Shown: positions 42,049 through 52,724 of the stretch, one piece after another
Numbering within the stretch: the first letter of the stretch is position 1
How the letters are laid out: each line of letters begins with the position of its first letter
Source of the DNA: Escherichia coli
GTDB lineage: Bacteria; Pseudomonadota; Gammaproteobacteria; Enterobacterales; Enterobacteriaceae
Assembly: GCF_003334335.1 (NCBI RefSeq)
Contig: NZ_QOWQ01000015.1
DNA length: 64,000 nt
Reading direction: 5' to 3' (one strand)
Translations under genes and position numbers: made by a program
Notes under the pieces: model-generated
Databases searched by the model: none
Told to the model about the DNA's origin: nothing
What the model saw: only the letters and a program-made list of their open reading frames with translations

Positions 42049-45000
42049 TTACACCTTTTCCACATTCACAAGGAAGGACTTAAACTCCGGCGTCTGCGTG
42101 TTCGCATCACCAACGAATGGCGTTAAAGTATTGGCAATAAAGCCTTTTTTAGCTACGCCTTCATAGCCCCAGTGAATCGGAATACCGATGGTATCGATAT
42201 CTTTGCCGTTCGCTTTCAGCGTGCGAATACGTTTGGTCACCACCGCTTTGGCTTTGATATAGCCACGGTTGGAGGAGACTTTCACGGTATCGCCCTGGGC
42301 AATGCCAAGTTTATTCGCCAGCGACTCCCCGATTTCCACAAACTGCTCTGGCTGCAAAATCGCGTTCAACAGCGCGTGTTTGGTCCAGTAGTGGAAGTGC
42401 TCGGTCAGACGATAGGTGGTTCCGACATACGGGAACTTATCGGCTTTACCCAATGCTTCGGCGTCGTCTTTAAAGATACGTGCAGCCGGGTTCGAGATAA
42501 CGTTTGGATGCAGCGGGTTAGTTCCCAGCGGCGTTTCAAACGGCTCGTAGTGTTCCGGGAACGGACCTTCCGCCATCTTATCGAGGGCAAACAGACGCCC
42601 CATGCCTTCCTGCTGCATGATAAACGGCCCGACGCCGCTACCCGGAGGCGCTGCGCTGTAGTCCGGAATATCCCAGCCGGTCCACTTAGTGCCGTCCCAT
42701 TTCAGCAACTGACGCTTCGGATCCCACGGGTTACCCTGCGGATCTGCGGAGGCGCGGTTATACAGAATGCGGCGGTTAAGCGGCCATGCCCATGCCCAGC
42801 CCAGCGTGTTACCGAGGCCAGACGGATCGGCGTTATCACGGCGTGCCATCTGGTTGCCTTCCGGCGTCCAGCTACCGGCGAAAATCCAGCAGCCACAGGA
42901 GGTTGTACCGTCATCGCGCAATTGGGCGAACGAACTAAGTTGTTGGCCTTTCTTGACGATAACCGCACCGGTTGCCGGATCGGTAATATCGGCCAGCGCC
43001 TTACCGTTGCTCTCCATCGCCACTTCTTCTGAAGATGGCTCATGCGGAATGGCGTAGTTCCATGTCATGTTCAGCACCTGGTCCGGGTTCGCGCCACCCT
43101 GTTCGGCATACATCTTGCGCAAGCGCAGGAAGATACCGGAGAGGATCTCGCCGTCAGTCAGCGCAATCCCCGGGGCGTCCGCACCTTTCCAGTGCCACTG
43201 TAACCAGCGACCTGAGTTAACGATAGAACCGTTCTCTTCCGCGAAGCAGGTCGATGGCAGACGGAACACTTCGGTCTGGATCTTCGACGAGTCAACTTCG
43301 TTCAGCTCACCGTGGTTCTGCCAGAAGTTAGAGGTTTCAGTGTTCAGTGGGTCGATGGTGACGAGGAACTTCAGTTTCGACAGACAACCGATCACTTTGT
43401 TTTTGTTCGGGAATGAGGCAACAGGGTTAAAGCCCTGGCAGATATAGCCATTGACCTTGCCCTCTTTCATCATCTCGAAGTATTGCAGGACGTCGTAGCC
43501 TTTATCCCACTTCGGCAACCAGTCAAAGCCCCAGCTATTTTCCGCCGTCGCTTTATCACCAAAGAAGGCCTTCATCATAGAGACGAAGAATTTCGGGTAG
43601 TTGCCCCAGTAGTTTACCTGGCCTTCCAGCAGCGGTTTTGGCGTGTTGGCGGTAAGGTAGGTTTGCAGATCGGTCTGCTTCTCGCTTGGCAGCGTCATGT
43701 AACCTGGCAGGCTCTGCGACAGCAGCCCCAGGTCCGTCAGCCCCTGAATATTGGAGTGACCGCGCAGGGCGTTAACGCCGCCGCCTGCCATCCCCATATT
43801 GCCGAGCAGCAGCTGGATCATCGCCATCGTACGAATGTTTTGCGCACCAACGGAGTGTTGCGTCCAGCCGAGGGCATACAGGAACGAGGCAGTTTTATCG
43901 TGAGCACTGGTTTCTGCGATGTATTCGCAGACTTTCAGGAACGCGTCTTTTGGCGTACCACAGATGTTTTCAACCACATCTGGCGTGTAGCGGGAAACGT
44001 GCTGTTTCAGCAAGTTCCACACGCAGCGCGGATGTTGCAGCGTGGTATCGCGTTTGGCGAAGCCGTTTTCGTCCAGTTCATAAGTCCAGGAGGATTTATC
44101 GTACTTGCGTTTTTCCGCGTCGTAGCCGGTGAACAGGCCATCTTCAAAGCCGTAATCCTCACGCACGATCAGGCTGGCGTTGGTATAGGCTTCGGTGTAT
44201 TCGCGGTTGAATTTTTCATTGTTCAGCAGGTACAGCAATACGCCTGACAGGAAAGCAATGTCAGTACCGGAACGAATAGGGGCATAGTAGTCAGCTACCG
44301 CCGCCGTACGCGTAAAGCGAGGATCGATCACAATCAGCTTCGCGCCGTTGTGAATTTTGGCTTCCATCGCCCAGCGGAACCCGACCGGGTGAGCTTCAGC
44401 GGCGTTACCGCCCATCACCACGACGAGGTTGGCGTTCTTGATGTCGACCCAGTGGTTGGTCATCGCACCGCGACCAAATGTTGGAGCAAGACTTGCTACC
44501 GTTGGTCCGTGTCAGACACGCGCCTGGTTGTCGACCGCGAGCATACCCAGCGCGCGGGAGAATTTTTGCGTTAAATAGCCGGTTTCGTTACTCGACGCGG
44601 AAGCACACAGCATCCCGGTGGAGAGCCAGCGGTTAACAGTCACGCCTTCGGCGTTTTGCGCAATGTAGTTAGCATCGCGGTCTTCTTTCATCAGTTTGGC
44701 GATGCGATCAAACGCCTCTTCCCAACTGATTTGCTGCCATTTATCAGAACCTGGCGCACGGTATTCCGGAAACTTCAGACGGCTTTCGGAGTGGATGAAA
44801 TCCACCAGGCCAGCGCCTTTCGGACAAAGTGCACCGCGGTTGACCGGGTGATCCGGATCGCCTTCGATATGGAAGATAGATGCTTTGGCGTTTTTTGCTC
44901 CGTCACCGAGGCTGTACATCAACAGCCCACAGCCTACGGAACAATAGGTGCAGGTATTACGGGTTTCGCGGGTGCGCAGCAGTTTATACTGCCGGGTTTC

Positions 45001-45099
45001 CGCGAGTGCTACGCTGGGTGCAAAACCCAGTGCCGCTGCCGTGGTGCCTGCCATACCGCCAGCGCAGATCTTAAAGAACTGCCTTCTGCTGACCTGCAT
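42049..45099 (-). CDS. fdoG: Formate dehydrogenase-O catalytic subunit, selenocysteine-containing (in-frame TGA at 44512-44514 read as Sec)
   Basis: ORF-track fragments 44512..45099 and 42049..44463 are in the same frame, separated only by TGA; the joined 1016-aa product reads ...VDNQARV-U-HGPTVASLAPTFGRGAMTNHW...; N-terminal Tat signal MQVSRRQFFKICAGG... Confidence 0.95.
44467..44514 (-). promoter_or_regulatory. Selenocysteine recoding site (UGA) with downstream SECIS-like hairpin in fdoG mRNA
   Basis: TGA codon (+ strand tca, 44512-44514) followed on the mRNA by CACGGACCAACGGUAGCAAGUCUUGCUCCAACAUUUGGUCG, which can form a stem-loop; position matches bacterial SECIS placement. Confidence 0.8.
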
Positions 45100-45292: not shown

Positions 45293-46126
45293 GTGAAAAA
45301 AACACAGCGAAAAGAAATCGAAAATGTGACAAATATCACAGGTGTTCGTCAAATTGAGTTATGGCGGCGTGATGATTTACAACACCCACGGTTAGATGAG
45401 GTCGCGGAAGAAGTTCCCGTTGCGCTGGTCTACAACGGCATTTCGCATGTGGTGATGATGGCGTCGCCCAAAGACCTTGAGTACTTTGCGCTCGGTTTTT
45501 CGCTTTCCGAGGGGATTATCGAAAGTCCGCGCGATATCTTCGGCATGGATGTCGTTCCTTCCTGTAATGGTCTTGAAGTACAAATTGAGCTTTCCAGCCG
45601 CCGCTTTATGGGGTTGAAGGAGCGCCGCCGGGCGCTGGCGGGACGTACGGGCTGTGGCGTATGCGGCGTGGAGCAACTTAATGACATCGGAAAACCGGTG
45701 CAGCCGCTACCGTTCACCCAGACGTTTGATCTCAACAAACTGGATGATGCATTACGTCATCTCAACGATTTTCAGCCAGTGGGGCAACTGACTGGTTGTA
45801 CTCACGCCGCTGCCTGGATGTTGCCATCTGGCGAACTGGTCGGCGGGCATGAAGACGTGGGTCGCCATGTGGCGCTGGACAAACTGTTAGGCCGCCGGTC
45901 ACAAGAAGGGGAAAGCTGGCAGCAAGGTGCGGTACTGGTTTCCAGTCGTGCCAGTTATGAAATGGTGCAAAAGTCGGCGATGTGCGGCGTAGAGATTTTG
46001 TTTGCGGTGTCTGCCGCGACCACGCTTGCTGTAGAAGTGGCTGAGCGCTGTAATCTGACACTGGTAGGTTTTTGTAAACCGGGTCGGGCAACGGTTTATA
46101 CCCATCCGCAGCGTTTGAGCAATTAA
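45293..46126 (+). CDS. fdhD: Sulfurtransferase FdhD (formate dehydrogenase maturation)
   Basis: 277-aa ORF with GTG start at 45293; conserved GCGVCG motif; divergent from fdoG. Confidence 0.93.
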
Positions 46127-46129
46127 TTA

Positions 46130-46168
46130 AAATAAGTCCTGCGAAATATATTAAATTGCAGGACTTAT
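46130..46168 (+). terminator. Terminator hairpin after fdhD
   Basis: Inverted repeat aataagtcctgc ... gcaggacttatt followed by a T-rich stretch. Confidence 0.65.
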
Positions 46169-46278
46169 TCATTTCGTGAATTTTATTATTTTATTTATAA
46201 ACAAAATGCGTGTAGTGGCGTTTTCTTTTTTCATTTATTATGTTCACTCTCTTATCTATATATTTATAAGGCAATTAA

Positions 46279-47334
46279 ATGAAAAGGAATTTATTATCTT
46301 CCGCTATTATAGTCGCCATCATGTCCCTCGGTCTGACGGGTTGTGATGATAAAAAAGCCGAAACAGAAACGCTCCCGCCTGCCAATAGTCAACCTGCCGC
46401 ACCAGCTCCTGAAGCGAAACCTACTGAAGCTCCCGTTGCAAAAGCAGAAGCTAAACCTGAAACACCTGCGCAACCGGTGGTCGATGAACAAGCGGTTTTC
46501 GACGAAAAAATGGATGTCTATATCAAGTGCTACAACAAGTTACAGATCCCGGTACAGCGCAGTCTGGCGCGTTATGCTGACTGGCTGAAAGATTTTAAAC
46601 AGGGGCCTACCGGTGAAGAGCGTACTGTTTATGGCATCTACGGCATTAGTGAATCCAACCTCGCTGAGTGTGAAAAAGGCGTAAAAAGTGCTGTGGCGTT
46701 AACGCCTGCGCTGCAACCAATTGATGGCGTGGCGGTGAGTTATATCGATGCTGCCGTGGCGTTGGGTAATACCATTAACGAAATGGATAAATATTACACC
46801 CAGGAAAATTATAAAGACGATGCGTTTGCGAAAGGGAAAACGCTGCACCAGACATTCTTAAAAAATCTGGAAGCCTTTGAACCTGTAGCCGAATCTTATC
46901 ATGCGGCGATTCAGGAAATTAATGATAAGCGTCAGCTTGCGGAACTGAAAAATATTGAAGAAAGAGAAGGGAAAACATTCCACTACTACTCTCTGGCAGT
47001 CATGATTTCAGCGAAACAAATTAATAACCTGATATCGCAAGATAAGTTTGATGCAGAAGCGGCAATGAAGAAAGTGTCTGAACTGGAAACGCTAGTGGCG
47101 CAGGCCAAAGAAGCGGATAAAGGCGGCATGAATTTCTCGTTTATTAATTCGGCAGGCCAGTATCAACTCGAGGCTAAAAAATACGTTCGCCGCATCAGAG
47201 ATAAAGTCCCGTACTCTGACTGGGATAAAGAGCAACTTCAGGACGCAAACTCAAGCTGGATGGTCGAAGACTCTTTCCCGAGAGCATTACGCGAGTACAA
47301 CGAAATGGTTGATGACTATAATAGCCTGCGTTAA
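46279..47334 (+). CDS. yiiG: DUF3829 lipoprotein YiiG
   Basis: 351-aa ORF; lipoprotein signal with lipobox LTGC (MKRNLLSSAIIVAIMSLGLTGCDD); Pro/Ala-rich linker. Confidence 0.9.
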   Translation: MKRNLLSSAIIVAIMSLGLTGCDDKKAETETLPPANSQPAAPAPEAKPTEAPVAKAEAKPETPAQPVVDEQAVFDEKMDVYIKCYNKLQIPVQRSLARYADWLKDFKQGPTGEERTVYGIYGISESNLAECEKGVKSAVALTPALQPIDGVAVSYIDAAVALGNTINEMDKYYTQENYKDDAFAKGKTLHQTFLKNLEAFEPVAESYHAAIQEINDKRQLAELKNIEEREGKTFHYYSLAVMISAKQINNLISQDKFDAEAAMKKVSELETLVAQAKEADKGGMNFSFINSAGQYQLEAKKYVRRIRDKVPYSDWDKEQLQDANSSWMVEDSFPRALREYNEMVDDYNSLR

Positions 47335-47354
47335 ACGTTTTTGATGATAAATGC

Positions 47355-47380
47355 AGTGTCGGATGCGGCGCATCCGACAC
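47355..47380. terminator. Bidirectional terminator hairpin between convergent yiiG and frvR
   Basis: Inverted repeat gtgtcggatgcg gcg catccgacac. Confidence 0.6.
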
Positions 47381-47383
47381 AGT

Positions 47384-49132
47384 TCACCCCTTGTGAAGTA
47401 ACTCCATAAATGCCTCATATCCTGTTAACCCGGCAATAATCTCCGCCGGATGCTGACACAATATGCTTGCCAGATAGCTAAATATTTTTAGCTCATGACG
47501 CGCATCGGCGGCGGCGCAGGCGATCAAGACATGGTTAATGACTTCGTTATTCACCTCAACTGGTTGGGCGAGGGTAATAAAAAATCCACGAAAACGTCGC
47601 TCCTGTTCGCTCCAGCAATGTGGGATGGCGAGGCGATTAACAATCAGGTTTTCACCTTCGCCTTCGCGGGCGATGATGCGTTGTGCTTCATCGGCGGTAA
47701 TATGGTGTTGTGCGACTAATTGCGCACAAATTTGCCGGGTAATATGTTGCCAGCTTTCACCGCGTACATTCGAATAATGAAAACTTCCGGGGGCAGAGAA
47801 AAAACGCTCCGGCTGTTGGCGAATAAATGCCGTCGCCAGAAAATGTTTTATTTGTTCGATACCGGCAGCCGTAATGATATTTTTTACGGTGATGTAATTA
47901 TTTACCGCGTCATCCAGTAAATAATGGCTGTTGTTAATGATCAATAACGGCTCAATCTCTTCGCGAATGGCAACAAGTTCGCTTAAGCTACGGGCAATAA
48001 TTACCCGACAATTTAAAACATCGCGCTCAATGGCGAGCTGATTAATAGTGGCAATCGCGTTCTGGTCCGAGAGCAAAATGATCGGCTGGCGTTCGTTTTG
48101 ATGCCGCTCCAGCGCACAGGCAAAATACAAACCGATCAGATCGCTGTCGAAAAGGGGAATATCGAGCTGTTCACGCAGTAGCGTAATAAAGTGCAGACTC
48201 ATATCAAAGGCCGCAGGCCAGGCGGCTTTCAGGTTATTCATGCTGCTCTGGCGGTGCTCAGCAATCCACACTGGTGCGGCAAGGCAACGTAATAAATGCC
48301 CGGTAATATTCTCAACCAGCTGCGCATCAATAATATTCAATGACGCGATGCCCGGCACCCTTTGCAGCAACCCCTGCACATTATCGGCTGAAATTACCTG
48401 CGCTTGCTGATGCTGTTTCTCTATCAAACCCGTCAGGGTTCTTACAGCGTTATCACCAAGAAACAGACCGCTATGTTCAACGATTTGTTTTATCTCGTCA
48501 CCGGGATATTGCGGCCACTCATCGGTCAGTTGATTACGCAGGGCGTAAATCGCCAGAATCAGGCTGGAGAGATAATCACCCTGCATGAGCGGCCAGCGGT
48601 GTTGGTTGTCGCAGGCCGTGGATAAATGCTGAAGGTTGTCTCGTGTTATGCCCGCCAGCGGAATTAAAAACGGATCTTTGCGCAGCAAGTTCGCCAGCAA
48701 GATAACGCGTTTCTCTTCTGTCTCATCAATGAAATGGCCCAAACCAGGGCGGCTGGCCAGGCAACAAGTGCGTTCATAACGCTGTTTTAACCGGGGCAGA
48801 CGCTCTGCTACCCACGTTTCTGGCAAATTAAGCGCCGAGGCGAGTTGCGCACGGGGAGTGAAAGTATTCAGTAATAACAGCGCCAGCAGCCGATCGTCGT
48901 TATCGTGCTTTTGCAGCAACTGAAAAAAGCTGCGGCGCTCGAAGATTTCCAGCTGATAGCCCGCACTGCCACTGGCGAAAATGCGGGCTTTGCCGTTAAG
49001 GGTGAAGTTGAGATAGTCAATATCACGCAGGATGGTCCTGCCTGAAACGCCAGTCTGTTGCGCCAGCTCGCCAGGCGTGCGCGGCTGTTGCTCCAGCAGA
49101 TCGACAATCTTTAACTGGCGTTCGTTTAGCAT
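47384..49132 (-). CDS. frvR: Putative frv operon regulator FrvR (HTH + PRD/PTS-regulatory-like domains)
   Basis: 582-aa ORF; N-terminal HTH region (GRTILRDIDYLN); recognised by recall; start codon overlaps frvX stop by 1 nt. Confidence 0.9.
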   Translation of the reverse strand: MLNERQLKIVDLLEQQPRTPGELAQQTGVSGRTILRDIDYLNFTLNGKARIFASGSAGYQLEIFERRSFFQLLQKHDNDDRLLALLLLNTFTPRAQLASALNLPETWVAERLPRLKQRYERTCCLASRPGLGHFIDETEEKRVILLANLLRKDPFLIPLAGITRDNLQHLSTACDNQHRWPLMQGDYLSSLILAIYALRNQLTDEWPQYPGDEIKQIVEHSGLFLGDNAVRTLTGLIEKQHQQAQVISADNVQGLLQRVPGIASLNIIDAQLVENITGHLLRCLAAPVWIAEHRQSSMNNLKAAWPAAFDMSLHFITLLREQLDIPLFDSDLIGLYFACALERHQNERQPIILLSDQNAIATINQLAIERDVLNCRVIIARSLSELVAIREEIEPLLIINNSHYLLDDAVNNYITVKNIITAAGIEQIKHFLATAFIRQQPERFFSAPGSFHYSNVRGESWQHITRQICAQLVAQHHITADEAQRIIAREGEGENLIVNRLAIPHCWSEQERRFRGFFITLAQPVEVNNEVINHVLIACAAADARHELKIFSYLASILCQHPAEIIAGLTGYEAFMELLHKG

Positions 49133-50202
49133 TAATCCACCTGACGGAACTGGCTAAACGCGTTGACTTTCTCCGCAGTTAAGGTCGTCAGAAAACCCCG
49201 TATCAGCGTGAGCAGAGCTTCGTAATCGGCTTTTGAAATCATACCGCTGTTGGCGTGCAGATAACGAGTTGGCAGACACAGCGCGACAACCGGACGCCCG
49301 CCGCCCATCACGTTGTAGCGCCCGCCATCCGTCGCACCGGTTTTCATGGTGGAAAATTGCAGCGGTAAATCGTTATGTGCGGCACAGCTTTTTAACGCTG
49401 CTACCAGTTTCTGGTTGGGGAAGTAGCGCTTGTCAAACAGCATCAGCCCCGGCCCCTGGCCCAGTTTCAGCGGGTATTTAATGTTATCAATGCCCGGAAC
49501 ATCGCCCGCTACGGCGGTATCCAACACGATCACGACGTCCGGTTTAATGTGTTCCGCCGAGGTTTGCGCCCCGCGTAGCCCAACTTCTTCTTCCACACTG
49601 CCAACGCCATACAGCGTAATTTCGGGATTATTCACCGTCTGCAATAGTTCAGCCATCATTGCGCAGCCGATGCGGTTATCCAACGCCTTGCCGACCACTT
49701 TATCTTCGCCCCAGCAAGCAAAATTGGCTTCCGGGCTAATAAAATTACCAATTTCCACGCCGCGCTTTTCCACCTCTTCGCGACTGTTCGCGCCAATATC
49801 AATGAACATCTCATCAAATGACAGCGGTTGTTGCTTTTGCTTTTCCGTTAACGCATGAGGCGCGACGGAACCAATCACACCAGGGATTTTCACTCCCTTG
49901 TGTGTGCGTATGGTTACCCGGTGGTTGAGCATCGACTGATTCCACCAGCCGCCAATGGTGGTAAAACGCAGAAAACCGCTCTCGTCGATGTGGGTGACCA
50001 TAAAGCCGACTTCATCCATATGTCCGACAACGGCAACTTTTGGACCTTTATTCCCCTTACGGGCAACAAAGCTGCCCAGACCATCGAAGGTGATTTCATT
50101 CACGCAAGGTTCCAGCGTGTTTATCAGAATGTCGCGAACTTCCTGTTCATCGCCGCTGACGGCGCTGGCTTCGCACAACTGTTGCAGTAACTCAATGTTC
50201 AT
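49132..50202 (-). CDS. frvX: M42-family metallopeptidase-like protein FrvX
   Basis: Start placed at ATG 50202 (MNIELLQQ..., 356 aa), 7 nt after AGGAG; ORF-track start is an upstream TTG; recognised by recall. Confidence 0.9.
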   Translation of the reverse strand: MNIELLQQLCEASAVSGDEQEVRDILINTLEPCVNEITFDGLGSFVARKGNKGPKVAVVGHMDEVGFMVTHIDESGFLRFTTIGGWWNQSMLNHRVTIRTHKGVKIPGVIGSVAPHALTEKQKQQPLSFDEMFIDIGANSREEVEKRGVEIGNFISPEANFACWGEDKVVGKALDNRIGCAMMAELLQTVNNPEITLYGVGSVEEEVGLRGAQTSAEHIKPDVVIVLDTAVAGDVPGIDNIKYPLKLGQGPGLMLFDKRYFPNQKLVAALKSCAAHNDLPLQFSTMKTGATDGGRYNVMGGGRPVVALCLPTRYLHANSGMISKADYEALLTLIRGFLTTLTAEKVNAFSQFRQVD

Positions 50203-51643
50203 GGACAAGCTCCTGTTGCGCGGCTTTCGCTTTGCGGCGTAACCACAATCCTTTCAGGACGATAATGAATGAAATGTTCAGCGCGAGGCCAATCGCCAGC
50301 ACCAGATAAAACGAACCCACCGGCGACATCAGGCCGATCAGCGGGTCAAAGATACCCAAACCAGGTGCCAGACGTTTGATTCCGAAAGCGATCACCAGCA
50401 CGCCGGTAATGCCGCCCGCCAGCGTATTGGCGGTAATCATCGGCAACGGAGCTGCCAGAGCGTAAGGAATAGCCGGTTCGGTTGCGACTGTGGCACCGAC
50501 CACAATGGCACTACTGGCAGCCTCTTTTTCCTGTCGGGTAAACAGTTTGGGCGCAATGAACGTCGCAAGACCCGCCGCGACGGGCGGCATCAGCGCGACA
50601 ACGCCGACGATGGCGTACCAGTCATAAATGTGTTTTTCCAGCAGTGAGAAGCAGAAGAACCAGGCGGTTTTATTGATGGGGCCGCCCATATCGAACGCCA
50701 GCATCGCACCGACCAGAAACGCTGCCGCAAACTTCATTGATGGAGGAATGGTATTCAGGAAGTGGAGCAGCCCGCCCATGAGGTCGGACATCACCGGCCC
50801 GATAACGTAGTAAGTGAGCACGCCGAAAACCAGCAGAGTAACGAACGGGATCAGCATTGAACCGAGCAGCGGTTGTAATGCTTTGCCAAGGCGCACTTTG
50901 CGGAACCAGAAGACGAAATAGCCAATCGCCAGCCCCAGCACCACCGCGCCGAGGAATCCCGCACCCGACTGGGTGCCGAGCAGCGCTTTGTCGTTCGCCA
51001 GATAGCAAACCAGAAACGCCGGAGCGAAAGCCGGTTTATCGGCAATCGACGAGGCAATATAAGCGCCCATGATGGGGATCATAAAGGTGAAGCCAAGGTA
51101 ACCGATGGATTCAACTACCCAGGTAAACGACGGCGCGCCTTTCGACATATCGGTATACGGCAAACCGAACTGCACCAGCATGTTGGCAAGCGCCACCAGG
51201 ATACCACCGCCGATGACAAACGGCAGCGCCGCAGAGACGCCCGCCATCAGGTGGCTCATCACGCTACCGCTTTGCACTTCCTGTTTGCCAAGCTTCACGC
51301 CGCTATCTGCGGCAAAAAGCTGCGAGTTTGTCGGTAATTCGCTGAAAATCTGGTCGATATTTTTCAACGCCTGGGAGATGGCAATCTCATAAACTTTCTT
51401 CCCGGCAAACCGCGCGCGATCATCACCGCTCAGGCCACGCCCGGTAGCGAGAATGACGTAATCGGCAGCGGCAATCTCTTCGCTGGATAAGCGGTTTTCA
51501 ACGCCACTGGACCCTTGAGTTTCCACTTTTATGGTATGACCGAGAGAACGGGCTTTCTGTTCCAGGGCTTCCGCCACCATGTAGGTGTGAGCGATCCCGG
51601 CGGGGCAGTTGGTGATCGCGACAATACGTAAGGATGACTCCAT
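50192..51643 (-). CDS. frvB: PTS fructose-like enzyme IIBC component FrvB
   Basis: Start placed at ATG 51643 (MESSLRIVAITNCPAG..., 483 aa); IIB active-site Cys in NCPAG context followed by polytopic IIC domain. Confidence 0.9.
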   Translation of the reverse strand: MESSLRIVAITNCPAGIAHTYMVAEALEQKARSLGHTIKVETQGSSGVENRLSSEEIAAADYVILATGRGLSGDDRARFAGKKVYEIAISQALKNIDQIFSELPTNSQLFAADSGVKLGKQEVQSGSVMSHLMAGVSAALPFVIGGGILVALANMLVQFGLPYTDMSKGAPSFTWVVESIGYLGFTFMIPIMGAYIASSIADKPAFAPAFLVCYLANDKALLGTQSGAGFLGAVVLGLAIGYFVFWFRKVRLGKALQPLLGSMLIPFVTLLVFGVLTYYVIGPVMSDLMGGLLHFLNTIPPSMKFAAAFLVGAMLAFDMGGPINKTAWFFCFSLLEKHIYDWYAIVGVVALMPPVAAGLATFIAPKLFTRQEKEAASSAIVVGATVATEPAIPYALAAPLPMITANTLAGGITGVLVIAFGIKRLAPGLGIFDPLIGLMSPVGSFYLVLAIGLALNISFIIVLKGLWLRRKAKAAQQELVHEH

Positions 51644-51653
51644 CGCCACTTCC

Positions 51654-52100
51654 TTATGAGCTGAGGGTTTGATTTAACAAGGCAAGCACCTGGTCGGTAT
51701 CGCCCTGTTGCAGTTGATGAATAAATTCCTTGTGAATAATTTTGCGACACAGTGTGCCGATGATTTTGACCTGATCCTCTTCGCCGCTTTGCGGCACGCC
51801 GAGGCAGATCCAGCAATTGACGTCTTCGCCATCGCTGGCTTTCCAGTCAATAGCCTGCGCTTTGCGGGCGAATAATACGAACGGTTGTTTAACGCAGGCG
51901 CTTTTACCGTGCGGCACGGCGACACCGGAACCAAATCCAGTAGAGTGCATTTTTTCGCGCAGCAGCAGGGTTTGCAGGAACTGGTGTGAGTCGGTGATAA
52001 AACCGTTTTGTAACGCTATTGTCGCCAACTGCTTCAGAACGGAATAAGCGCCATTGCCCTGAATATTCAGGTCAATACAGCTTGCAGTAAGAGCTGCCAT
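51654..52100 (-). CDS. frvA: PTS fructose-like enzyme IIA component FrvA
   Basis: 148-aa ORF; EIIA(Fru/Mtl) family with conserved His (GVAVPHG); recognised by recall. Confidence 0.92.
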   Translation of the reverse strand: MAALTASCIDLNIQGNGAYSVLKQLATIALQNGFITDSHQFLQTLLLREKMHSTGFGSGVAVPHGKSACVKQPFVLFARKAQAIDWKASDGEDVNCWICLGVPQSGEEDQVKIIGTLCRKIIHKEFIHQLQQGDTDQVLALLNQTLSS

Positions 52101-52400
52101 TAATCGGACTCCATAAAATATATTTTAATCAATTGTAATGGTGGAGCGATTAAGTGATGAGAGGCGATATGTCGGTAAACAATGACAATTTGAGACAGAG
52201 TGAAAGGTCAGATTTGCGGAGTAATGCACATAATGGTTATTTAAATAAACCACATGAATCATTAATGGGTTATTCATTATTTTTGTGATTTACTCACAAT
52301 GTATCAGGGAAATATAACTTACCGGGAGATGTAATATGTTTAATTTTTCAAATCGAAATTTAAAATATTGTGCCGGAGGCATCTCTGGCACATTGGGCAA

Positions 52401-52715
52401 TTACGGCAGGTAAAACACTTCTTGCAGCTCGCTACTCACCGGGCTGTTATCCGGGTTAGCGGGCATAACATCGGTCATATATTTCCACCAACGTTGGCAA
52501 ACATCAGTGCTGGCAACCGCATTCCAGCGTTCTTCAGATTCAATCTCTACCATGGCAAACAGCAGATTACGCGCTTTGTCGAGATAGATGGCGTAGTTAT
52601 GCGCACCGTGAGATTTCAGCACTGCTTCCAGTTCTGGCCAGATGGGATTATGCCGACGCTGATACTCTTCGTGGGCGTCGGGGTTTACCTGCATGACAAA
52701 GGCTTTGCGGATCAT
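52401..52715 (-). CDS. rhaM: L-rhamnose mutarotase
   Basis: 104-aa ORF; recognised by recall ([30 protein letters not shown]...). Confidence 0.95.
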
Positions 52716-52724
52716 GTTTGCTCC

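What the first reader, a model, noticed from the sequence alone, without database searches (positions are those of the whole stretch)
47384..52100. frvABXR: a PTS-like operon of unknown substrate pairing a IIA/IIBC transporter with an M42 peptidase-like protein and a large regulator
The operon combines a fructose-type EIIA (frvA), an EIIBC (frvB), an M42-family metallopeptidase or cellulase-like protein (frvX) and a 582-aa HTH regulator (frvR) with tightly abutting or overlapping gene boundaries. A peptidase-like enzyme inside a sugar PTS operon is unusual, and as far as I know the substrate is undefined.
Basis: partly seen in the sequence, partly recalled or inferred. Interest (0 to 1): 0.35.

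Follow-up and report, generated by a model that had tools for sequence, protein, structure and literature searches.

The report
E. coli frvABXR orphan PTS operon
This is the long-annotated but never characterised frv sugar-uptake operon of E. coli; it is intact and under selection, and relatives in other bacteria suggest it imports a sugar linked to an amino acid or short peptide.

Summary
Window 47384-52100 (minus strand) holds frvA (EIIA), frvB (EIIBC), frvX (M42 peptidase) and frvR, tightly packed, 100% identical to E. coli K-12-type chromosomes.

The operon is already known and annotated. No paper in the searched library defines its substrate.

- FrvX keeps all seven M42 catalytic and metal residues.
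- All four genes show dN/dS of 0.00-0.16.

New points from this work:
1. FrvR is a divergent MtlR/LicR-type PRD regulator (HTH, wHTH, two PRDs, EIIB-like and EIIA domains). It keeps His279 and His505.
2. The frvA promoter region carries a conserved CRP-like site and a TGTCA-N8-YGACA dyad resembling the B. subtilis MtlR operator. The dyad recurs upstream of 52 of 77 related cassettes.
3. FrvB-type transporters (55-78% identical) sit in one cassette across Enterobacterales, Listeria, Enterococcus, Lactobacillaceae and Coriobacteriia. Outside Enterobacterales the partner is always a PatB-family PLP C-S beta-lyase, often with a peptidase (M42, PepT-like M20 or Sapep M20). Enterobacterales keep only the M42.

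I infer that the substrate is a sugar bearing an aminoacyl or peptidyl group. This is untested.

The parts
51654..52100 (-). frvA: fructose-family PTS EIIA, with phosphorylatable His64 in the motif AVPHGK
   Evidence: ORF. NCBIfam PRK09913 at 290 bits and TIGR00848 at 147 bits. dN/dS 0.08-0.14.
50192..51643 (-). frvB: fructose-family EIIB-EIIC, with Cys13 in the motif NCPAGIAHT
   Evidence: ORF. NCBIfam PRK11404 at 1034 bits, with next-best hits FruA and MngA. The Cys motif is invariant in alignment A3. dN/dS 0.00-0.07.
49132..50202 (-). frvX: M42 (TET-type) dinuclear metallo-aminopeptidase with a complete active site (H61, D63, D175, E205, E206, D228, H316)
   Evidence: Pfam PF05343 at E 2e-102. 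PDB hits are 1vhe at 1e-86 and PhTET2 1y0r at 4e-67. Residues were mapped from the alignment and confirmed. dN/dS 0.07-0.11.
47384..49132 (-). frvR: divergent PRD-type transcription regulator (HTH 1-60, second wHTH about 78-135, PRD-like helical region about 140-345, EIIB-like domain about 348-440 without the Cys, EIIA domain 455-560 with His505)
   Evidence: Pfam. AF2 model with pLDDT 84.6. Foldseek hits to MgaSpn, AtxA and 3sqn at E 3e-11 to 1e-9, plus EIIA-Ntr/Mtl. Profile relatives carry PRD, Mga and PTS_IIB domains. Residue mapping.
52215..52230 (-). CRP-like site TGTG-N8-CGCA (TGTG-N8-CACA in other genera), roughly -98 from the inferred transcription start
   Evidence: Phylogenetic footprint across 16 enterobacterial frvA upstream regions. 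Coordinates.
52167..52188 (-). Candidate FrvR operator: dyad TTGTCAT-TGTTTA-CCGACATAT, centred about -54 and 5 nt upstream of a weak -35
   Evidence: Invariant TGTC...GACATAT. The same dyad lies upstream of EIIA in 52 of 77 loci across phyla. Chance is about 1.6 matches per 64 kb. It resembles the mapped B. subtilis MtlR site TTGTCACAGTCATGTGCCAA (PMC3217849).
52132..52161 (-). Inferred promoter core: weak -35 CTCATC (52161-52156), 18-nt spacer, -10 TACAAT (52137-52132)
   Evidence: Conserved blocks. The generic sigma-70 scan did not find it. The transcription start is not mapped.
52109..52112 (-). Shine-Dalgarno sequence GGAG, 8 nt before the frvA ATG
47356..47380 (.). 11-bp GC-rich hairpin directly after the frvR stop codon, between convergent frvR and yiiG; a likely transcript end or REP-like element
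   Evidence: Sequence. Fold of -22.4 kcal/mol, z -2.3. The terminator scan did not call it because it lacks a T-run.

Best explanation
frvABXR is a self-contained, inducible PTS catabolic module. Shown from sequence: FrvA (His64) and FrvB (Cys13, EIIC) have every feature of a fructose-family phosphorelay and transporter. FrvX is a catalytically complete cytosolic M42 dinuclear metallo-aminopeptidase. FrvR has the fold and domain order of MtlR/LicR-type PRD activators. Inferred: EI and HPr phosphorylate FrvA, which passes the phosphate to FrvB, and FrvB imports and phosphorylates a carbohydrate that carries an aminoacyl or short peptidyl group. FrvX then removes the amino acid or acids from the phospho-conjugate. 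In the Gram-positive and Listeria versions of the same cassette, a PatB-family PLP beta-lyase performs the core cleavage. E. coli lacks that gene in the operon and may rely on MalY or MetC, or may stop at the trimmed product. FrvR, controlled by PTS phosphorylation at His279 (PRD2) and/or His505 (EIIA-like), binds the TGTCA-N8-YGACA dyad at about -54. There it activates a weak-(-35) promoter together with CRP when substrate drains phosphate from FrvA and FrvB.
For: Family assignments and catalytic residues. Purifying selection on all four genes, with dN/dS 0.00-0.16 within E. coli and against Enterobacter. The four-gene cassette is kept in the same order at different chromosomal sites in Hafnia and Enterobacter, with no other enzyme gene. 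It is present in 27 of 28 enterobacterial species loci. FrvR fold and relatives. Conserved promoter motifs, and the dyad in 52 of 77 loci against about 1 expected. The operator resembles the mapped MtlR operator, which also sits just upstream of the -35. For the substrate class, 80 FrvB-type loci (55-68% identical to the query EIIBC) were examined. All 52 non-enterobacterial loci with a scorable neighbourhood carry a PatB-family lyase (TIGR04350 above cut-off in two of the three proteins scanned and just below it in the third). Of these 52, 28 also carry a peptidase of a different family by lineage: M42 in Listeria, PepT-like M20 in Enterococcus and Granulicatella, and Sapep-family M20 in Coriobacteriia. 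Sequential action of a dipeptidase and a PatB lyase on Cys-Gly-S-conjugates is an experimentally established logic (PMC11742315). All three E. coli M42 paralogues lie in PTS operons.
Against: No biochemical or genetic data exist for any step. The substrate class rests entirely on gene neighbourhood. The E. coli operon lacks the lyase that is the universal partner elsewhere, so the enterobacterial version may have a different or reduced role. The operon is absent from 1208 of 5426 complete E. coli genomes and carries occasional frameshifts. In E. coli both the CRP-like site and one dyad half-site deviate from the inter-genus consensus, which fits poor expression. Pfam does not call PRD domains in FrvR. 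FrvR has lost the second PRD2 histidine and the EIIB cysteine, so its control may differ from MtlR. The transcription start is not mapped.
Confidence: 0.55

Rival explanations
1. FrvX is a general housekeeping TET-type aminopeptidase that merely hitch-hikes in a PTS operon. The PTS takes an ordinary ketose or hexose, and the peptidase has no mechanistic link to it.
For: M42 enzymes characterised so far, including E. coli YpdE, are broad aminopeptidases (PMC3511314). FrvX is 40-50% similar to such enzymes. No other sugar-processing enzyme is needed if the product is fructose-1-P or mannose-6-P.
Against: frvX overlaps both neighbouring genes, which implies translational coupling. It is retained in 27 of 28 enterobacterial cassettes, and in Listeria it sits next to the lyase. 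In other lineages the same position holds non-orthologous peptidases. All three E. coli paralogues sit in PTS operons.
Confidence: 0.2
2. In E. coli the frv operon is a cryptic remnant. It would be a horizontally acquired Listeria-like cassette that lost its beta-lyase and is now silent and slowly being lost.
For: The operon is missing from 22% of complete genomes. frvR is frameshifted in L011 and frvB is broken in L009. The upstream region is AT-rich at 39% GC, has degenerate CRP and dyad half-sites and no canonical promoter. The closest non-enteric cassette is from Listeria (FrvB 77-78% identical, M42 60-65%), and that cassette contains PatB.
Against: dN/dS is 0.00-0.16 for all four genes, lower than for the neighbouring yiiG at 0.22-0.31. 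All four ORFs are intact in every sequence compared across E. coli lineages and five genera. Non-coding promoter motifs are conserved across more than 10 genera. Only about 3 of 59 sampled genomes show a 1-nt length change.
Confidence: 0.15
3. FrvX is a glycoside hydrolase (the old 'endoglucanase/CelM-like' annotation) that cleaves a phospho-glycoside produced by the PTS.
For: It occupies the position that a phospho-glycosidase holds in many PTS operons. Several PDB relatives are still labelled endoglucanase.
Against: The cellulase annotation of M42 proteins was tested experimentally and rejected (PMC3511314). FrvX has the full His/Asp/Glu dinuclear metal site and the catalytic Glu of aminopeptidases. 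Related cassettes substitute M20 peptidases, not glycosidases.
Confidence: 0.05

Closest known systems
Bacillus subtilis / Geobacillus MtlR (also LicR, ManR): PRD-containing transcriptional activators controlled by PTS phosphorylation
   Same: Same domain order: HTH, Mga-type wHTH, PRD, PRD, EIIB-like, EIIA-like. The first PRD2 histidine and the EIIA histidine are conserved. The operator has the same TGTCAC-N6-GTGNCA type and sits just upstream of a weak -35.
   Different: FrvR is about 20% identical and about 60-100 residues shorter. Pfam's PRD model does not match it. The second PRD2 His is replaced by an invariant Tyr336 and the EIIB Cys by Leu/Ser. It is found in a Gram-negative and is encoded as the last gene of the operon it presumably controls. 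A published table lists it under the AraC family (PMC4797297), which the fold does not support.
TET / M42 aminopeptidases (P. horikoshii PhTET2, B. subtilis YsdC 1vhe, E. coli YpdE)
   Same: Full-length homology (E 1e-86 to 4e-67). The HxD, D, EE, D and H metal and catalytic residues are identical.
   Different: FrvX is 35% identical to YpdE and 29% to SgcX. It is translationally coupled to a PTS transporter, and its substrate has not been tested.
E. coli fryBC-ypdF-ypdE-fryA and sgcX-sgcBCQAER orphan PTS operons
   Same: Each is a PTS transporter plus an M42 paralogue in one operon with unknown substrate.
   Different: They have different EII families or architectures, different regulators (AraC-type YpdC, DeoR-type SgcR) and extra enzymes (M24 YpdF; SgcE, SgcQ).
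PepV/TpdA dipeptidase plus PatB/AecD C-S beta-lyase pathway for Cys-Gly-S-conjugates (Staphylococcus hominis, Corynebacterium)
   Same: A sequential MH-clan peptidase and PatB-family lyase. This is the same enzyme pair found in frv-type cassettes of Listeria, Enterococcus and Coriobacteriia.
   Different: There, uptake is by a peptide transporter and the genes are not clustered (PMC11742315). Here the pair is clustered with a sugar PTS, and E. coli has only the peptidase.
MngA/MngB (2-O-alpha-mannosyl-D-glycerate PTS plus hydrolase) and malX-malY
   Same: MngA is a fructose-family EII that imports a sugar linked to a small acid, whose phospho-product a dedicated hydrolase then splits. FrvB scores 256 bits on the MngA model. 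malX-malY is a second E. coli pairing of a PTS EIIBC with a PatB-type lyase. MalY is 39-45% identical to the cassette lyases.
   Different: MngB is a GH38 mannosidase, not a peptidase. MalX belongs to the glucose family. Neither is an orthologue of an frv component.

Membership tests
PTS EIIA, fructose/mannitol type (PF00359 / TIGR00848) | Profile match over the whole domain | tested here: met
   TIGR00848 at 147 bits (cut-off 103.5); PRK09913 at 290 bits.
PTS EIIA, fructose/mannitol type (PF00359 / TIGR00848) | Phosphorylatable histidine in the (A/V)(I/V)PH motif | tested here: met
   FrvA His64 in GVAVPHGK.
PTS EIIA, fructose/mannitol type (PF00359 / TIGR00848) | Phosphotransfer from HPr~P to the cognate EIIB | not testable with these tools
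   Needs an in vitro phosphorelay assay.
PTS fructose-family EIIBC (TC 4.A.2) | EIIB domain with active-site Cys, plus a fructose-type EIIC | tested here: met
   TIGR00829 at 103 bits and TIGR01427 at 196 bits, both above cut-off. Cys13 in NCPAGIAHT is invariant in A3.
PTS fructose-family EIIBC (TC 4.A.2) | Transports and phosphorylates fructose | not tested
   FrvB scores far below the FruA equivalog cut-off (271 against 793 bits). It is therefore a family member but not a FruA orthologue.
Peptidase family M42 (TET aminopeptidases) | Profile match across the catalytic and PDZ-like domains | tested here: met
   PF05343 matches 1-292 of 292 positions at E 2e-102.
Peptidase family M42 (TET aminopeptidases) | Five metal ligands, the catalytic Glu and the conserved Asp of HxD | tested here: met
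   H61, D63, D175, E205, E206, D228 and H316 align with PhTET2 H68, D70, D182, E212, E213, D235 and H323. The PhTET2 ligand numbering is from memory of the published structures.
Peptidase family M42 (TET aminopeptidases) | Dodecameric assembly and aminopeptidase activity | not testable with these tools
   Needs purified protein.
PRD-containing transcriptional activators (MtlR/LicR/ManR class) | N-terminal HTH plus Mga-type winged helix | tested here: met
   HTH_11 at E 8e-10. Foldseek alignment of about 485 columns to MgaSpn, AtxA and 3sqn.
PRD-containing transcriptional activators (MtlR/LicR/ManR class) | Two PRD domains recognisable by profile | tested here: inconclusive
   Pfam PRD does not match FrvR. 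However, the fold matches PRD regulators, and 15 of 20 distant profile relatives carry Pfam PRD.
PRD-containing transcriptional activators (MtlR/LicR/ManR class) | Two conserved phosphorylatable histidines in PRD2 | tested here: not met
   Only the first is kept, as His279. The second is an invariant Tyr336.
PRD-containing transcriptional activators (MtlR/LicR/ManR class) | EIIB(Gat)-like domain with Cys | tested here: not met
   The alpha/beta domain at 348-440 is present in the model. The Cys column holds Leu354/Ser355.
PRD-containing transcriptional activators (MtlR/LicR/ManR class) | C-terminal EIIA(Mtl)-like domain with His | tested here: met
   PF00359 at E 3e-13. His505 is invariant in 20 of 20 distant and all close relatives.
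PRD-containing transcriptional activators (MtlR/LicR/ManR class) | Binds a dyad operator upstream of the -35 and activates transcription | tested here: inconclusive
   A conserved dyad of MtlR-operator type is present. Binding was not tested.

The most novel reading that the evidence does not exclude
FrvAB-type transporters would mark an unrecognised cross-phylum catabolic pathway for amino-acid-linked sugars, for example O- or S-glycosyl serine/cysteine and their di- or tripeptides from glycoproteins, plant material or thiol conjugates. After PTS uptake, a PatB-family PLP beta-lyase would release sugar-phosphate plus pyruvate and ammonia, and an interchangeable MH-clan peptidase would trim flanking residues. 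E. coli FrvX would be that trimming enzyme, and the orphan lyase MalY (malX-malY) could be the missing partner. The same idea would then explain two 30-year-old orphan PTS loci.
Probability: 0.2. Interest if true: 0.75.

Novelty: already known. Interest (0 to 1): 0.42.

Why it matters
frvABXR is one of the few E. coli K-12 transport operons that still has no substrate, three decades after it was named. This work shows that it is selected rather than decaying. It also shows that the regulator is an MtlR-like PTS-controlled activator with an identifiable operator. Finally, the transporter is always partnered with amino-acid-processing enzymes in other phyla. Together these results turn 'unknown substrate' into a short, testable candidate list of glyco-amino acids, S-conjugates and aminoacyl sugars. 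They also give handles for forcing expression: the operator and the His279/His505 variants. If the pathway is confirmed, it would add a nutrient class to PTS biology that is relevant to gut, food and plant niches.

Tried and rejected
1. The generic sigma-70 and terminator scan found no promoter upstream of frvA and no terminator after frvR. A phylogenetic footprint and RNA folding were needed instead.

2. Large clusters of 'truncated FrvR' (P0151 at 448 aa, and others) looked like common null alleles. P0151 is in fact cut by a contig end, so these clusters were not counted as decay.

3. I tried using the absence of a gene symbol as a proxy for pseudogenes in the 60-row sample. This failed, because L011 keeps the symbol frvR although the gene is frameshifted. 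Only length differences were used. Nonsense substitutions were therefore not surveyed.

4. A sequence-only PDB search with the FrvR profile gave only marginal hits. A fold search was required.

5. The 'PatB' adjacent to frvR in Superficieibacter (L034) is a distant aminotransferase, 27-30% identical. Its neighbours are not malX or malI, so it was discarded as support.

6. NCBIfam gave nothing for the neighbouring porin. Pfam identified it as RafY-type.

7. Rfam found no RNA family in 46000-53000.

8. Aligning the frvA-rhaM intergenic regions of porin-plus and porin-minus strains did not resolve the deletion junction.

9. Literature searches for frvA/B/X/R, 'frv operon', and M42 with PTS found no functional study. 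The library lacks most subscription-journal papers, including the 1994 description of the operon, which I cite from memory.
Full report
**What is there**

The window is an E. coli chromosome segment in the order fdoG, fdhD, yiiG, frvR-frvX-frvB-frvA, rhaM-rhaD-rhaA. The 5.4 kb around the finding is 100% identical to strain MB10 and nearly identical to K-12 derivatives.

- frvA 51654-52100
- frvB 50192-51643
- frvX 49132-50202
- frvR 47384-49132

The boundaries are a 10-nt gap, an 11-nt overlap and a 1-nt overlap. Each product exceeds the curated cut-off of its own NCBIfam equivalog, and the Pfam results agree.

(i) Metal ligands.
- Aligned to P. horikoshii TET2 (1y0r) and B. subtilis YsdC (1vhe), FrvX has H61, D63, D175, E205, E206, D228 and H316.
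- These sit at the positions of the two-metal site, the catalytic glutamate and the conserved HxD aspartate.
- The same seven residues are present in SgcX, YpdE, Hafnia FrvX and three Listeria orthologues.
- FrvX is therefore a catalytically complete M42 enzyme. The 'cellulase' label of this family has been corrected experimentally (PMC3511314).

(ii) Decay.
- Nei-Gojobori dN/dS between the window and three diverged E. coli alleles and Enterobacter gives 0.08-0.14 for frvA, 0.00-0.07 for frvB, 0.07-0.11 for frvX and 0.07-0.16 for frvR.
- The control genes gave 0.013 for fdhD and 0.22-0.31 for yiiG. All ORFs compared are intact.
- The coding region is present in 4218 of 5426 complete E. coli genomes.
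- In a rank-spread sample of 59 carriers, three are 1 nt shorter. One of these, L011, was checked and has a frameshifted frvR.
- One draft genome has a broken frvB.
- O157 carries an in-frame 12-nt deletion in frvB.
- So the operon is dispensable and occasionally lost, but it is under purifying selection where present.

**Is the peptidase unusual?**

Within K-12, all three M42 paralogues lie in PTS operons: sgcX-sgcBCQAER and fryBC-ypdF-ypdE-fryA, plus frv. The four-gene frv cassette recurs in the same order at unrelated chromosomal sites in Hafnia alvei and Enterobacter hormaechei, with no further enzyme gene. The association is therefore recurrent and conserved, not an accident.

**FrvR**

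- Pfam sees only an N-terminal HTH_11 and a C-terminal PTS_EIIA_2 domain.
- An AlphaFold2 model built on 21 orthologues has mean pLDDT 84.6.
- Foldseek aligns about 485 residues of it to the PRD-type regulators MgaSpn (5way, E 3e-11), AtxA (4r6i) and 3sqn. The C-terminus aligns to EIIA-Ntr/Mtl structures.
- A profile search of 1.8 billion representatives finds 1219 relatives.
- Among 20 distant full-length relatives, 20 carry PTS_EIIA_2, 19 HTH_11, 15 PRD, 13 Mga and 7 PTS_IIB. This is the MtlR/LicR/ManR architecture.
- Column mapping gave four results:
  - FrvR keeps the first PRD2 histidine (His279, invariant).
  - FrvR keeps the EIIA histidine (His505, invariant).
  - The second PRD2 histidine is replaced by an invariant Tyr336.
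  - The EIIB-like cysteine has been lost.
- FrvR is thus a divergent, partly degenerate PRD activator. One published table lists it under the AraC family (PMC4797297), which the fold contradicts.

**Promoter**

Aligning the frvA upstream region from 16 enterobacterial strains and genera shows conserved blocks in otherwise unalignable DNA. The window coordinates come:
- TGTG-N8-C(A/G)CA, with CRP-site spacing (52230-52215)
- a dyad TGTCA-N8-(T/C)GACATAT (52188-52167)
- a weak -35, CTCATC (52161-52156)
- a -10, TACAAT (52137-52132)
- an SD, GGAG (52112-52109)

The dyad pattern occurs upstream of the EIIA gene in 52 of 77 related cassettes, including Listeria, Lactobacillaceae, Stoquefichus and Olsenella/Atopobium. 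Chance gives 1.6 matches per 64 kb, or about 0.01 per upstream region. Its form, TGTCAC-N6-GTGACA, and its position next to the -35 match the experimentally delimited B. subtilis MtlR site TTGTCACAGTCATGTGCCAA (PMC3217849). I infer that it is the FrvR operator. This is not shown. An 11-bp hairpin follows the frvR stop codon.

**The cassette beyond Enterobacterales**

Distant FrvR-like genes sit beside EIIA and EIIBC genes plus a PLP enzyme and an M20 peptidase. The EIIBC of one such locus scores 778 bits on the FrvB equivalog model, whose cut-off is 806 bits. The PLP enzyme is a PatB-family C-S lyase, and the peptidase is PepT-like.

A scan of one genome per species returned 80 loci whose EIIBC is 55-68% identical to the Granulicatella EIIBC used as query, the window's FrvB being 65% identical to it. 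Gene maps and a tally give:

| Lineage | Cassette content |
|---|---|
| Enterobacterales | 27/28 M42 + FrvR, no lyase |
| Listeria sensu lato | 6/7 M42 + PatB + FrvR; 1/7 PatB + FrvR |
| Enterococcus / Granulicatella | 4/4 PatB + FrvR + PepT-like M20 |
| Lactobacillaceae | 21/21 PatB (19 with FrvR) |
| Coriobacteriia | 18/19 PatB + Sapep-family M20 dipeptidase (TIGR01887, 263-271 bits against cut-off 208) |
| Stoquefichus | PatB + FrvR |

The Listeria cassette is the closest to the E. coli one, with FrvB 77-78% identical and M42 60-65%.

**Interpretation**

The universal non-enteric partner is a beta C-S lyase. The second enzyme is a peptidase drawn from three different families in different lineages, which is non-orthologous displacement. 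That pattern argues that peptide-bond hydrolysis is a functional part of the pathway and that the substrate contains an alpha-amino acid.

Sequential action of a PepV-type dipeptidase and a PatB lyase is experimentally established for Cys-Gly-S-conjugates in staphylococci (PMC11742315). Fructose-family EIIs are also known to import a sugar linked to a small acid, as MngA does. FrvB scores 256 bits on the MngA model.

I therefore propose that FrvAB imports and phosphorylates a sugar bearing an aminoacyl or peptidyl group and that FrvX trims it. The E. coli operon lacks the lyase. E. coli MalY, itself paired with another PTS gene (malX), is 39-45% identical to the cassette lyases. That is nearly as close as the cassette lyases are to each other, at 42-65%. 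The identity of the substrate, the FrvX reaction and the role of MalY are all inference.

**Rivals**

- A hitch-hiking housekeeping peptidase. This is disfavoured by the gene coupling and by the displacement pattern.
- A cryptic remnant. This is disfavoured by dN/dS and promoter conservation, but it is consistent with absence from 22% of genomes and with degenerate half-sites in E. coli.
- A glycosidase. This is contradicted by the active site and by the literature.

**Verdict**

The finding is a real, correctly described and already-known orphan operon. Its interest lies in now having a concrete, testable hypothesis for substrate class, regulator type and operator.

Noticed in passing
window 52101-52400; compare L013 6983-8305, L012 6993-8317, L008 7084-8239, L007 7738-9132: Many E. 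coli strains (O157, C1, AVS0530) carry a 464-aa RafY-type glycoporin gene (Pfam Porin_8, E 1e-154) divergent from frvA. The window (K-12 type) lacks it and has only a 300-nt AT-rich spacer up to rhaM. Strains without frv keep the porin between yiiG and rhaM. The two elements are therefore lost independently.
   Followed up: partly
L099 3356-6130 (E. coli K-12 malX-malY): E. coli MalY is 39-45% identical to the PatB-type lyases of frv-type cassettes. malX-malY is thus a second PTS-plus-beta-lyase pair of unknown physiological substrate in the same genome.
   Followed up: partly
window 46279-47334 (yiiG); L007 6695-7359, L008 1194-1835: The neighbouring yiiG (DUF3829) is annotated as a truncated or frameshifted pseudogene in some strains. 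It evolves faster than the frv genes, with dN/dS 0.22-0.31.
   Followed up: partly
window 44512-45099 (-): The 195-aa ORF beginning MQVSRRQFFK (twin-arginine leader) is the N-terminus of formate dehydrogenase-O subunit alpha. It ends at an in-frame stop that is presumably the selenocysteine UGA codon, so ORF callers split the gene.
   Followed up: no
L013 4609-6048: E. coli O157 strains carry an in-frame 12-nt deletion in frvB, giving 479 instead of 483 aa. It was seen in four O157 genomes of the spread sample.
   Followed up: partly
L049 (contig CACSKA010000012.1, labelled Chryseobacterium sp. 18061): This contig carries an enterobacterial-type frvABXR locus with Citrobacter-like flanks, almost the same layout as Citrobacter sp. 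18056 (L050). The genome label is probably a contamination or a mix-up.
   Followed up: no
window 39260-39279: This is the only other match in the 64-kb window to the dyad pattern TGTCR-N6-11-YGACA (TGTCAATCAGATTGCTGACA). It is at chance level (1.6 expected) and was not examined further.
   Followed up: no
window 47356-47380: A perfect 11-bp hairpin, GTGTCGGATGC-GCC-GCATCCGACAC, lies between the convergent frvR and yiiG genes. It has no T-run and may be a REP-like element rather than a classical terminator.
   Followed up: partly
L009 3484-4941 and contig end at 7344: In assembly GCA_025431375.1, frvB is split into 371-aa and 103-aa ORFs, and the contig ends inside frvR at codon 448. Many database 'FrvR' entries of about 448 aa may reflect an assembly break at this point. 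The cause, possibly an insertion element, was not determined.
   Followed up: partly
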